A stretch of 64,000 nucleotides of DNA from assembly GCF_056746865.1 (NCBI RefSeq), contig NZ_CM163382.1; one strand, written 5' to 3'. Numbering within the stretch: position 1 is the first letter of the stretch; the number at the start of each line of letters is the position of its first letter. Position numbers: made by a program. This document shows positions 45,601 to 48,600 of this stretch, piece after piece.

Positions 45601-48600
45601 TCCTCAACGAAAAACTGGCTAAACAGCTGGTAACTGCCGCGAACTGGGTAAAAATGCAGAGTGACGAAGGGGAAATCAACCCGGTTGATATTCTCCGCTG
45701 GCCGGGGGTAATGGCAGCCCAGGAGCAGGATCTCGACGCGATTACCGCTGAAATTCTCGCGGCGCTGGATGGTACGCTGGACGACTTTATCGTCGCACGC
45801 GAAACCGAAGGTCAGGCGCTGAAAGCATTGATCGAGCAGCGTCTGGAAGGCGTCACCGCCGAAGTGGTCAAAGTCCGCGCCCATATGCCGGAAATCCTGC
45901 AATGGCAGCGTGAGCGTCTGGTCGCGAAGCTGGAAGATGCTCAGGTGCAACTGGAAAACAACCGTCTGGAGCAGGAGTTGGTTCTGCTGGCACAACGAAT
46001 TGACGTTGCCGAAGAACTGGATCGCCTCGAAGCGCATGTCAAAGAGACCTACAACATTCTGAAGAAAAAAGAAGCGGTTGGTCGTCGTCTGGACTTTATG
46101 ATGCAGGAGTTCAACCGCGAGTCGAACACTCTTGCGTCGAAATCTATCAATGCCGAAGTGACGAATTCTGCCATCGAGCTGAAAGTGTTGATTGAGCAGA
46201 TGCGCGAGCAGATCCAGAATATCGAATAAGCTATCAGTAAAAATCACCAAGCAGCAAAAAACCACAAAGCCCGCGAAATGTCGGGCTTTTTTGTTATCAT
46301 GAGCTATCATAACGACGCAACAAAGCGCACAATATGCGTGTACATAGAGGTGTACATAATGACTTTCATGTACATTGCTTTATGTACACACCCATATTCG
46401 ATATTCAGGTATTCGCAATGCCAAAACTCACAGATATGCAGATCCGCGCATGGATAAAGGCGGGAGACAGATTTGATGGCAAGGCAGACGGCAACGGCCT
46501 TTATATTTGCTACCCCAAAAACTACACAGTCCCGTTCTGGCGATTCCGCTATAAGCTCGCAGGAAAGCAGCGGGCTATGGTTATAGGCTCTTACTCCGAA
46601 CTGTCACTATCAAAAGCCAGAGAAACAGCAAAAGAGCTGTCAGCCAGAGTTGCTCTTGGCTATGACGTAGCAGCAGAGAAACAGGAACGAAAAGCTGAAG
46701 CACTGGCAAAAATGGAGGCTGAGAAAAACGCCATGCGTGTTTCAGATCTGGCCTCCGAATACTTCGAGCGCCAGATACTTCCGAGATGGAAACATCCCGA
46801 TATCCTTCGCCGGAGAATTGATAAGGATATTAACCCCTGCATTGGGCATATGAAGGTGGAGGACGTTAAGCCACGCCACATTGACGACATGTTGAAAGGT
46901 ATCGTTGACCGAGGAGCACCAACGATAGCAACAGATGTATTACGCTGGACACGCCGTATCTTTGACTATGGGATAAAACGCCATGCTCTGGAGATAAACC
47001 CTTGTTCAGCGTTTGAAGTATCTGATGCTGGTGGTAAAGAGGTTTCCCGCGACCGTTGGCTAACTCGCGATGAGCTTATCAGGCTATTCGAGGCTATGCG
47101 CACCGCAAAAGGATTCAGCCGCCAAAACGAACTGACATTTAAGCTATTGCTGGCACTATGCGTTCGTAAGATGGAGTTATGCGCCGCACGATGGGAAGAG
47201 TTTGATTTAGATAGTGCTGTATGGCATTTGCCGGAAGAACGCAGCAAAAACGGGGACCCTATTGATATACCTCTACCTTCTCCAGCCGTTGAATGGTTGA
47301 GAGAGCTACACACCTTTTCATGTAATAGCGCATGGGTGCTTCCAGCCAGGAAGATGCAAAACAGAATGATCCCACATATTCAGGAAAGCACTTTACCCGT
47401 AGCACTGGCTAAGGTTCGCGCCGAAATGCCGGATGTGCCTAATTTCACGATTCACGACTTCCGACGCACCGCACGTACTCATTTAGCAGCGTTGGGTGTT
47501 GATCCTGTTGTGGCGGAACGATGCCTCAATCATCGCATTAAGGGCGTAGAGGGGATTTATAACCGCCATCAGTATTTTAATGAGCGTAAAGCAGCACTGG
47601 CACAGTGGGCTGATCTGCTGGTGGCACTGGAAAGCGGAAAAGACTACAACGTAACGCCTCTCAGAAGGGCGAACTAACTGAATAGATTGAGCCTAGCTCG
47701 ACGGGGCGAAAAGCGGGAAGCCTTACCGCCTGGCTCAATCACAAAATAAGGCGCAGCGTAAAAGGTGACGCAATGAACGACTCTCATGAAACAACTGCGG
47801 TGCATAGAAATTAGACTGGCCCCCTGAATCTCCAGACAACCAATATCACTTAAATAAGTGATAGTCTTAATACTAGTTTTTAGACTAGTCATTGGAGAGC
47901 AGATGATTGATGTCTTAGGACCGGAGAAACGCAGACGGCGTACTACACAGGAAAAGATCGCTATTGTTCAGCAGAGTTTTGAACCGGGAATGACGGTCTC
48001 CCTTGTTGCCCGGCAACACGGTGTGGCAGCCAGCCAGTTATTTCTCTGGCGCAAGCAATACCAGGAGGGAAGTCTTACTGCTGTGGCCGCAGGAGAGCAG
48101 GTCGTTCCTGCCTCTGAACTTGCTGCTGCCATGAAGCAGATTAAAGAACTCCAGCGCCTGCTCGGCAAAAAAACGATGGAAAATGAACTCCTTAAAGAAG
48201 CCGTTGAATACGGGCGTGCAAAAAAGTGGATAGCGCACGCGCCCTTATTGCCCGGGGATGGGGAGTAAGCTTAGTCAGCCGTTGTCTCCGGGTGTCGCGT
48301 GCGCAGTTGCACGTCATTCTCAGACGAACCGATGACTGGAAAGATGGTCGCCGCAGCCGTCACTCAGATGATACGGATGTGCTTCTCCGTATACACCATG
48401 TTATCGGAGAGCTGCCCACGTATGGTTATCGTCGGGTATGGGCGCTGCTTCGCAGACAGGCCGAACTTGATGGTATGCCTGCGATCAATGCCAAACGTGT
48501 TTACCGGATCATGCGCCAGAATGCGCTGTTGCTTGAGCGAAAAACCGCTGTACCGCCATCGAAACGGGCACATACTGGCAAAGTGGCCGTGAAAGAAAGC

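What the first reader, a model, noticed from the sequence alone, without database searches (positions are those of the whole stretch)
46339..46390. Four TGTACA-core direct repeats just upstream of the integrase start
(A)TGTACA(T/C)A occurs four times within 52 bp at irregular spacing, 30-80 bp upstream of the integrase ATG and just after the yicC terminator. This is the expected location for integrase arm-type sites, attachment-site core repeats or AlpA/excisionase operators.
Basis: seen in the sequence. Interest (0 to 1): 0.35.

Follow-up and report, generated by a model that had tools for sequence, protein, structure and literature searches.

The report
Integrase arm-type sites beside yicC
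The four TGTACA motifs are most likely accessory ("arm-type") docking sites for the integrase of a satellite-like island inserted at the end of yicC, an ordinary kind of feature, although its sequence changes in step with one small loop of the integrase.

Summary
TGTACA occurs at 46339, 46351, 46369 and 46383, which is 4 of the 11 copies in 64 kb; 400 simulated windows never put more than 2 in 52 bp. The real unit is an asymmetric 10-mer, GTGTACATAA. Two copies are direct (46338, 46350; 12-bp spacing) and two inverted (46366 weak, 46380).

They lie 108 bp inside the island from the attachment core, which is the last 21 bp of yicC, and 28-79 bp before the int ATG.

About 40 related integrases (63-92% identity, Enterobacterales to Rhodocyclales) have the same block at the same spacing, also next to yicC. 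The 10-mer differs between elements but changes together in all copies of one element.

A matching pair lies about 62 bp from the core at the other island end in six lineages. All six sites flank one core in a free 12-kb circular copy.

The variable half of the site tracks integrase residues 29-41, a hairpin of the arm-binding domain. It does not track AlpA or the replicase.

Verdict: these are P' arm-type integrase sites (confidence 0.85), and probably also an operator for int self-repression (inferred). It is a new member of a known kind, of modest interest. Binding was not tested.

The parts
46209..46229 (+). attL copy of the attachment core: the last 21 bp of yicC including the stop codon (CAGATCCAGAATATCGAATAA)
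   Evidence: The island sequence begins directly after this stretch when compared with the empty K-12 site. A second copy lies at the right end of related islands. It is the single core in the circular form, L084 9349-9369.
46266..46299 (+). Island-borne terminator-like hairpin, flagged on both strands, that takes the place of yicC's own terminator and separates yicC transcription from the P' sites and int
   Evidence: Terminator scan, 8-bp stem plus T run, reported on both strands. It is absent from K-12, which has another terminator. A terminator sits at the same position in about 40 related elements.
46338..46347 (+). P'1 arm-type site, GTGTACATAG
   Evidence: It is the first of a direct pair with 12-bp spacing, and that spacing is invariant across about 40 elements.
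46350..46359 (+). P'2 arm-type site, GTGTACATAA (exact consensus)
46366..46375 (-). P'3 arm-type site, inverted and weak (ATGTACATGA on the minus strand)
   Evidence: 2 mismatches. A site at this offset is recognisable in only 20 of 37 non-redundant elements.
46380..46389 (-). P'4 arm-type site, inverted, GTGTACATAA on the minus strand (exact); the most consistently present of the four sites in the family
   Evidence: Its core lies at offset +44 to +46 from that of P'1 in all but one element.
46418..47677 (+). int: tyrosine integrase of the IntSXT/P4-like type, with an N-terminal arm-binding domain. Residues 29-41 are the variable hairpin.
   Evidence: Pfam PF13356, PF22022 and PF00589. PDB sequence hits 3JU0 and 3JTZ. 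The AF2 model has pLDDT 90.5 and Foldseek returns 3JTZ, 3RMP and 3JU0.
50189..50392 (+). alpA-family gene of the island, the rival candidate binder, which the comparisons argue against
   Evidence: Pfam PF05930. There is no concordance with site type.

Best explanation
The four motifs are the P'-arm set of arm-type binding sites (P'1 to P'4) for the island's own integrase.

The island is a satellite-like element with P4-type genes that inserts by site-specific recombination into the last 21 bp of yicC. Its integrase has two DNA-binding parts. The central and catalytic domains act on the yicC core. The N-terminal arm-binding domain should bind the 10-bp sites GTGTACATAA.

The predicted attP reads: P1 and P2 (direct, 12 bp apart), about 61 bp, the core, 108 bp containing a terminator, P'1 and P'2 (direct), P'3 and P'4 (inverted), 28 bp, then the int ATG. 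By analogy with lambda Int, protomers bridging arm and core sites would fold attP (or attL with attR) into the recombination complex and help set its direction.

The terminator ends 48 bp upstream of P'1, and P'4 ends 28 bp before the start codon (in some relatives directly before the ribosome-binding site). Any int promoter must therefore overlap or closely adjoin the sites. Integrase bound there probably also represses its own gene.

Shown here: the sites, their geometry, their presence on both arms, their concerted variation, and their concordance with the integrase hairpin. Inferred: physical binding, a role in recombination, and self-repression.
For: 1. Clustering far beyond chance.

2. 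The integrase has an arm-binding domain: PF13356 at E 9e-20, sequence hits to 3JU0 and 3JTZ, and fold hits to 3JTZ, 3RMP ('recognition of attP substrates by P4-like integrases') and 3JU0.

3. Both arms carry the site. Right ends of related islands have a direct pair with 12-bp spacing about 61-66 bp upstream of a second core copy:
- E. coli L001, L003, L082, L083: GTGTACATAA twice.
- Aeromonas L020: GTGTACCCAA twice.
- Pantoea L041.
- Buttiauxella L017 (Pectobacterium L019 carries the same pair), Zobellella L028 and Erwinia L048.
Each pair uses its own element's variant.

4. An intact attP exists. A 12,152-bp circular replicon (NZ_CP148430.1) carries P1, P2, core, P'1 to P'4 and int contiguously, and 5 of its 6 matches with at most one mismatch lie within 264 bp. 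A separately assembled record, 'phage_14408_2', has the same junction.

5. Conservation with concerted change. About 40 integrase relatives (63-92% identity) in many genera keep the geometry 0, +12, about +31 (inverted) and +45 (inverted), while the 10-mer differs between elements and agrees within each.

6. Concordance of protein and site. Integrase residues 31-33 against positions 7-10 of P'4:
- C[YF]P goes with WTAA, 5 of 5.
- R[YFH]R goes with CCAR, 16 of 16.
- SYR goes with ACCY, 9 of 10.
- C[YH]R goes with CAAA, 8 of 9.
Partial Mantel of site distance on segment 29-41, controlling for residues 100-419, gives r = 0.47 with permutation p at or below 2e-4. The best 10-residue window starts at residue 33. 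The segment maps to strand 28-32, loop 33-39 and strand 40-47 of the arm-domain model.

7. Precedent for self-repression. KplE1 IntS P' sites overlap the intS promoter (PMC2951348), and the P4-like integrase of PAI I-536 represses its own promoter (PMC7286903).
Against: - No binding, footprint or recombination data exist for this integrase. Everything here is comparative.
- The P' sites lie within about 200 bp of the codons for residues 29-41, so part of the protein-site concordance could come from physical linkage and block exchange rather than co-adaptation. Linkage does not explain why four to six copies in one element agree, nor the match of the distal P-arm pairs.
- One decayed tandem element (L048, second copy) combines an SYR-type int pseudogene with CCAA-type sites.
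- The window lacks the island's right end, so the two-arm test rests on relatives that are 97-99% identical across the region compared.
- No consensus sigma-70 promoter was found in 46150-46500, so the overlap of promoter and sites is argued from geometry only.
- The block can fold into a stable hairpin, so a structural role is not formally excluded.
Confidence: 0.85

Rival explanations
1. The sites are operators or recombination-directionality sites bound by the island's AlpA-family protein, acting as an excisionase or as an activator of int.
For: An AlpA gene (PF05930) lies 2.5 kb downstream of int's stop codon. Directionality factors often bind short tandem repeats in att arms, and in KplE1 the TorI sites also lie in attL. 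A weak residual correlation remains between site distance and AlpA distance once the integrase segment is controlled for (partial r = 0.20, p = 0.03).
Against: - L003 has the same sites as the window, but its AlpA is only 75% identical.
- L003's AlpA is 97% identical to those of L005, L006 and L040, which have ACCT-type or CCAA-type sites.
- L015 and L020 share one AlpA type but differ in arm type.
- Six elements with at least 8 kb sequenced downstream (L017, L019, L021, L025, L033, L035) have the four-site block but no detectable homologue of the window's AlpA.
- The partial correlation with the integrase segment is much stronger (r = 0.50, p at or below 2e-4).
Confidence: 0.05
2. The block acts through nucleic-acid structure: P'1 pairs with P'4 and P'2 with P'3, forming a hairpin in the int 5' leader or in single-stranded DNA, for example an attenuator or a processing signal.
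For: RNA folding of 46330-46397 gives -24.6 kcal/mol with z = -4.3, and none of 200 shuffles folds as well. Concerted change of direct and inverted copies would look like compensatory covariation.
Against: - A hairpin does not require P'1 to resemble P'2, yet they agree (mean 1.7 mismatches in 10 within an element against 2.6 between elements) at a fixed 12-bp spacing.
- A hairpin cannot explain the matching direct pairs on the other arm.
- P'3, needed for the inner stem, is recognisable in only 20 of 37 elements.
- No Rfam family reaches its threshold.
- No transcription start upstream of the block is known.
Confidence: 0.05
3. The repeats are iterons or an origin bound by the island's primase-helicase, as the iterons of P4 ori and crr are bound by its alpha protein (from my own knowledge of P4).
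For: The island encodes a primase-type replicase and occurs as a free circular replicon. Short direct and inverted repeats are typical of iterons.
Against: - Identical sites go with different replicases: TOPRIM plus DUF927 in L001, and DUF5906 in L003 and the window.
- The sites always bracket the att core next to int rather than the replicase gene.
- Their variation follows the integrase arm domain.
Confidence: 0.02
4. The motifs are chance AT-rich intergenic repeats, sites for a host factor, or part of the attachment core.
For: The local sequence is AT-rich (40% G+C). TGTACA is not over-represented in the window as a whole.
Against: - The cluster statistic argues against chance.
- The geometry is conserved in about 40 elements from distant hosts.
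- Different site variants occur within the genus Escherichia: CCAA type in L008 against ATAA type in the window.
- The motif is absent from the empty K-12 site and from the core.
Confidence: 0.02

Closest known systems
Arm-type sites of phage lambda Int (P1, P2, P'1 to P'3)
   Same: About 10-bp sites unrelated to the core, on both arms of attP. The integrase carries an N-terminal arm-binding domain, and tandem sites are about one helical turn apart. Bridging of arm and core sites is the expected mechanism (lambda mechanism from established knowledge; role of the AB domain as summarised in PMC8138268).
   Different: The arm domain belongs to a different family (DUF4102/PF13356, not the lambda type). 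There are six sites, with two of the four on the P' arm inverted. The core lies in the 3' end of a protein-coding gene. A terminator is embedded in the P' arm. int sits directly next to the P' sites and reads away from the core.
KplE1 (CPS-53) IntS/TorI module and the 'attL overlaps the int promoter' class (Panis et al. 2010, PMC2951348)
   Same: int lies next to attL and is transcribed away from the core, with P' arm sites just upstream of int. In KplE1 this gives negative self-regulation. The same is reported for the P4-like integrase of PAI I-536 (PMC7286903).
   Different: The target is yicC rather than a tRNA gene. The promoter is not mapped here and no consensus promoter was found. Self-repression is inferred, not shown. 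The site sequence and number differ.
P4-like integrases of genomic islands with solved arm-binding domains (HPI Int 3JTZ/3RMP, HAI7 Int 3JU0)
   Same: The same domain family and fold: Foldseek TM-score normalised to the target 0.86-0.89, rmsd 1.6-1.8 A for 3JTZ and 3RMP (TMt 0.70, rmsd 1.9 A for 3JU0), and sequence E-values of 1e-6.
   Different: Only 27-29% identity. Those integrases target tRNA genes. Their arm-site sequences could not be compared because the papers are not in the held library.
Other elements that integrate at the 3' end of yicC (MGIVflInd1 and MGIVmi1, SGI1-like elements, reference PICIs)
   Same: They use the same chromosomal target, a known hot spot (PMC8409611; bioRxiv 10.1101/2022.07.18.500453).
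   Different: No paper in the held library combines yicC with arm-type sites. How those integrases relate to this one was not tested here.

Membership tests
Arm-type sites of a heterobivalent tyrosine integrase | The cognate integrase has an N-terminal arm-binding domain | tested here: met
   PF13356 at E 9e-20 over residues 4-90. PDB hits 3JU0 and 3JTZ. Fold match to 3JTZ, 3RMP and 3JU0.
Arm-type sites of a heterobivalent tyrosine integrase | Repeated short sites whose sequence is unrelated to the crossover core | tested here: met
   The site is GTGTACATAA and the core is CAGATCCAGAATATCGAATAA.
Arm-type sites of a heterobivalent tyrosine integrase | Sites on both arms of attP, that is, at both ends of the integrated element | tested here: met
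   Met in relatives, not in the window itself, whose right end lies beyond base 64000. Right-end pairs occur in L001, L003, L082, L083, L020, L041, L017, L028 and L048. The intact attP is seen in L084.
Arm-type sites of a heterobivalent tyrosine integrase | Site sequence specific to the cognate integrase | tested here: met
   Categorical concordance in 38 of the 40 elements in the four classes (the 41st, L034, forms a class of its own). Partial Mantel r = 0.47-0.50, p at or below 2e-4. The caveat is physical linkage of the sites and the codons.
Arm-type sites of a heterobivalent tyrosine integrase | Direct binding by the integrase N-domain and a requirement for recombination | not testable with these tools
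   This needs gel-shift or footprinting assays and integration and excision assays with mutated sites.
Self-repressed int with attL overlapping its promoter (KplE1 type) | int next to attL, transcribed away from the core, with P' sites in its upstream region | tested here: met
   Core at 46209-46229, sites at 46338-46389, int ATG at 46418, all on the + strand.
Self-repressed int with attL overlapping its promoter (KplE1 type) | Arm sites overlap the -35 and -10 elements of the int promoter | tested here: inconclusive
   No consensus sigma-70 promoter was found. The only candidate is weak and read by eye: TGTACA (46369-46374), 18 bp, CATATT (46393-46398). The geometry, with a terminator 48 bp upstream and P'4 next to the ribosome-binding site in L029, L035 and L037, forces overlap or close adjacency.
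Self-repressed int with attL overlapping its promoter (KplE1 type) | Integrase lowers transcription of its own gene | not testable with these tools
   This needs a promoter fusion with and without integrase.
AlpA/excisionase (directionality factor) binding sites | Site sequence follows the sequence of the directionality factor | tested here: not met
   AlpA proteins 97% identical go with different sites, and AlpA proteins 75% identical go with identical sites.
Attachment-site core repeat | The motif is shared by attL, attR and the empty attB | tested here: not met
   The K-12 yicC-dinD interval has no TGTACA. The shared segment is the 3' end of yicC.

The most novel reading that the evidence does not exclude
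Within one integrase lineage that always targets the same yicC core, the arm-binding domain has diversified into at least four 'dialects': GTGTAC followed by WTAA, CCAA or ACCT, and TGTACCAAA. The dialect would be set by a swappable hairpin, residues 29-41, that changes together with all six arm sites.

This would be a natural recognition code for DUF4102 arm-binding domains. It could also be a way for islands competing for one attB, which do form tandem arrays there, to keep their excision and int self-repression separate from each other.
Probability: 0.35. Interest if true: 0.5.

Novelty: new member of a known kind. Interest (0 to 1): 0.3.

Why it matters
As a feature this is ordinary: arm-type sites next to an island integrase.

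Its practical value is in annotation. The full attP layout fixes the exact island boundary. The island begins directly after the yicC stop codon, and the terminator after yicC is island DNA. The layout also gives a simple signature for finding both ends of yicC-inserted islands.

The comparative result is of moderate interest to people who study or engineer tyrosine integrases. There are four site variants, each matched to a variant of one hairpin in the arm-binding domain, while the core target stays the same. That offers ready-made, possibly orthogonal pairs of arm domain and arm site to test.

Tried and rejected
- Deposited phages (tblastn of the integrase): nothing above 34% identity, so no phage attP was available for comparison.
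- IMG/VR scan for the predicted attP junction: no match. The scan for the tandem 10-mer pair returned only two integrated right ends.
- Sigma-70 promoter scan of 46150-46500: no site. I could not place the int promoter.
- Rfam at a permissive threshold: only sub-threshold chance hits.
- The papers on the HPI and HAI7 arm domains, and the 3RMP complex, are not in the held library. I could not check which residues contact DNA or compare the known arm-site sequences.
- Single exact 10-mer matches far from att in L009, L018 and L023 have no partner and no core nearby, so I treated them as chance.
- The TGTACATA at 50128-50135 upstream of alpA has 2 mismatches to the 10-mer and no partner, so I treated it as chance.
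- Strict 'orthogonality' of tandem islands is weakened by HB37, where both tandem copies are ATAA type.
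Full report
**Observation**

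The window is E. coli chromosome. yicC ends at 46229, and a 419-aa tyrosine integrase starts at 46418. TGTACA occurs at 46339, 46351, 46369 and 46383. The hexamer is not enriched in the window overall (11 found, 11.7 expected). Four copies in 52 bp is far from chance: 400 first-order Markov simulations of the window never gave more than two.

TGTACA is a palindrome, so the flanks decide orientation. The unit is a 10-mer, GTGTACATAA:
- 46338, + strand, one mismatch.
- 46350, + strand, exact.
- 46366, - strand, two mismatches.
- 46380, - strand, exact.

The block is therefore two direct copies followed by two inverted copies, not four direct repeats. About 0.14 exact copies of this 10-mer are expected in 64 kb.

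**Where the block sits**

Comparison with the empty K-12 locus (L002) shows that foreign DNA begins directly after the yicC stop codon. The hairpin terminator at 46266-46289 therefore belongs to the island and replaces yicC's own terminator.

RefSeq annotation of two closely related islands shows what the element carries:
- int and an AlpA-family gene.
- An antirepressor, and ash-like and icd-like genes.
- A primase-type replicase.
- P22-like ejection-protein genes.
- A perC-family gene.

In those two genomes the island is 19-21 kb and lies between yicC and dinD or yicG. It looks like a satellite with P4-type genes. The window ends inside the island, so the island's own right end is not available.

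**The other boundary**

In L001 and L003 the right end carries GTGTACATAAggGTGTACATAA, with the same 12-bp spacing as the left pair. These are the only other exact copies in 32-42 kb of sequence. About 62 bp further on, L003 has CAGATTCAATATCGAGTAA, a copy of the 3' end of yicC. That stretch of yicC is thus the crossover core. Two IMG/VR contigs show the same right end.

**An intact attP**

I built the predicted junction (right end, core, left end) and searched complete E. coli genomes with it. Three records have it contiguous:
- A 12,152-bp circular replicon deposited as a plasmid (NZ_CP148430.1).
- A separately assembled record called 'phage_14408_2'.
- A tandem junction in the chromosome of strain HB37.

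In the circle the order is P1 9266, P2 9278, core 9349-9369, P'1 9478, P'2 9490, P'3, P'4 9520 (- strand), int ATG 9558. Five of the six matches with at most one mismatch in the whole element fall within these 264 bp. The six sites therefore flank one core, which is the classical arm-site layout.

**Relatives**

A scan of one genome per species returned about 40 integrases of 63-92% identity. They come from Enterobacterales, Aeromonas, Tolumonas, Zobellella, Vogesella, Crenobacter, Azonexus, Aromatoleum and Rhodocyclales.

Nearly all sit directly after a yicC 3' end. Each has its own terminator followed by a four-site block with nearly fixed geometry: 0, +12 (direct), about +31 (inverted) and +45 (inverted), with P'1 59-83 bp before the ATG in all but three elements.

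The 10-mer differs between elements:
- GTGTACATAA in the window.
- GTGTACCCAA, the commonest form.
- GTGTACACCT.
- GTGTACTTAA.
- TGTACCAAA.
- GTGCACCCAA.

Within one element the copies agree. Over positions 7-10 there are 1.1 mismatches within an element against 2.1 between elements.

Right ends lie within reach in six lineages besides E. coli. In each, a direct pair with 12-bp spacing, using that element's own variant, lies about 61-66 bp before a second core copy. P'3 is weak or missing in about half of the elements.

**Which protein reads the sites**

The integrase has an N-terminal arm-binding domain:
- Pfam PF13356.
- Sequence hits to the arm-binding domains of the HAI7 and HPI integrases, 3JU0 and 3JTZ.
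- A confident model (pLDDT 90.5) whose best fold matches are 3JTZ, 3RMP ('recognition of attP substrates by P4-like integrases') and 3JU0.

In the alignment of the N-termini one segment, residues 29-41, is hypervariable. In the model it covers strand 28-32, loop 33-39 and the start of strand 40-47.

Its variants sort with the variable half of the site:
- C[YF]P at residues 31-33 goes with WTAA, 5 of 5.
- R[YFH]R goes with CCAR, 16 of 16.
- SYR goes with ACCY, 9 of 10.
- C[YH]R goes with CAAA, 8 of 9.

This is not simply overall relatedness. The window's integrase is 89-92% identical to CCAA-type integrases (L006, L008, L040) but only 77-80% identical to other members of its own C[YF]P (WTAA-site) class (L015, ATAA; L017, TTAA). 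A partial Mantel test of site distance on segment distance, controlling for residues 100-419, gives r = 0.47 with permutation p at or below 2e-4. The most informative 10-residue window starts at residue 33.

AlpA does not sort with the sites:
- L003 has the window's sites, but its AlpA is only 75% identical.
- That AlpA is 97% identical to those of L005, L006 and L040, which have other site types.
- L015 and L020 share an AlpA type but differ in arm type.

The partial correlation of site with integrase segment, given AlpA, is 0.50 (p at or below 2e-4). The partial correlation of site with AlpA, given the segment, is 0.20 (p = 0.03). Six elements with long downstream flanks have the block but no detectable homologue of this AlpA.

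The replicase is also dissociated from the sites. L001 has a TOPRIM/DUF927 protein, while L003 and the window have a DUF5906 protein, and all three have identical sites.

**Caveats**

- The P' sites lie within about 200 bp of the codons for residues 29-41. Joint inheritance of a recombination block contributes to the concordance. It does not explain why all copies in an element agree, or why the P-arm pair does too.
- A decayed second element in L048 combines an SYR-type int pseudogene with CCAA-type sites.
- The block folds into a stable hairpin (-24.6 kcal/mol, z = -4.3). A hairpin does not explain the similarity of P'1 and P'2, the frequent loss of P'3, or the distal pairs. No Rfam family matches.

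**Mechanism**

The best-supported reading is that these are arm-type sites. The N-domain of integrase protomers would bind them while the other domains act on the yicC core, assembling the recombination complex as in lambda. The role of arm-binding domains is summarised in PMC8138268.

A second role is likely. The terminator ends 48 bp upstream of P'1, and P'4 ends 28 bp before the ATG. In some relatives P'4 lies directly before the ribosome-binding site. The int promoter must therefore overlap or adjoin the sites.

In KplE1 this layout gives negative self-regulation of intS (PMC2951348). The P4-like integrase of PAI I-536 also represses its own promoter (PMC7286903).

I could not locate a promoter. 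The scan found none, and the only candidate, read by eye, is weak: TGTACA, 18 bp, CATATT (46369-46398). Binding, a role in recombination and self-repression are all inferred.

**Comparison with what is known**

The 3' end of yicC is a known integration hot spot for mobilizable islands, SGI1-like elements and PICIs. I found no paper in the held library that describes arm-type sites for a yicC-targeting integrase.

The feature is a new member of a known kind. The less ordinary part is the set of arm-site dialects within a lineage that keeps one core target, tied to one hairpin of the DUF4102 domain.

**Verdict**

- Confidence in the arm-site reading is 0.85, and in self-repression about 0.5.
- Interest is 0.3.

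Noticed in passing
window 46230-46337: A second, different set of short element-specific repeats fills the P' arm between the core and P'1, on both sides of the terminator. They read GCTATCA, AAATCAC, then GTTATCA-tga-GCTATCA-taac-GACGCAA-caa-AGCGCAC, phased at about 10-11 bp and running into P'1. Other elements have other words at the same places, for example ACTCC(G/A) in L015 and L020, which share one AlpA type. They are candidate sites for a directionality factor or another accessory protein.
   Followed up: partly
window 46266-46299, and the same position in L004-L048: Every element carries its own terminator-like hairpin inside the P' arm; the window's copy was flagged on both strands, the relatives' were read by eye and not scanned. 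yicC is therefore terminated by island DNA, and its native terminator is displaced to the far end of the island.
   Followed up: partly
L003 24884, L082 13928, L083 11353, L017 13632, L028, L048; compare L084 9349-9369: The core copy at many right ends is 2 bp shorter (CAGATTCA--AYATCGA) than the core in yicC, in attL and in the circular attP (CAGATTCAGAAYATCGA). This recurs in E. coli, Buttiauxella, Zobellella and Erwinia, but not in Aeromonas L020 or Pantoea L041. It suggests two attP variants, with the crossover to the right of the GA. In L001 most of the right-end core is deleted.
   Followed up: partly
L084 (NZ_CP148430.1, 12,152 bp, circular) and L086 (NZ_LT599831.1, 'phage_14408_2'): Islands of this family were assembled as free replicons with an intact attP, so the family can exist outside the chromosome as an episome or packaged DNA.
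   Followed up: partly
L085 6000-6320; L017 13548-13800; L048 11257-11700: Tandem arrays occur at yicC: an island's right end joins directly to the P' arm of a second element. The second copy is intact in E. coli HB37, where its P'2 carries a point mutation, and decayed in Buttiauxella and Erwinia.
   Followed up: partly
window 47812-49142 and 43785-44491: Two insertion sequences are present relative to L001. One is an IS3-family element (HTH_Tnp_1 and rve ORFs, about 1.33 kb) 135 bp downstream of int. The other is an IS200-like element (Y1 transposase, about 0.7 kb) between pyrE and rph.
   Followed up: partly
L043-L047, the ~180 bp upstream of the aligned part of int (match starts at query residue 3-23): Integrases only 41-50% identical to the window's have, at the equivalent place, four direct repeats of TGTAGCTNG spaced about 11-12 bp apart. 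This is probably the arm-site block of a sister clade, in an all-direct layout.
   Followed up: no
window 59098-64000 (L003 15512-20680): The island carries homologues of P22-type DNA-ejection proteins (DUF2824, ejection proteins, a lytic transglycosylase domain protein). This is unusual cargo for an element with a P4-type replication and regulation module.
   Followed up: no
window 50127-50136: A lone CTGTACATAT (2 mismatches to the 10-mer, - strand) lies about 55 bp upstream of alpA. It has no partner site and is probably chance.
   Followed up: no
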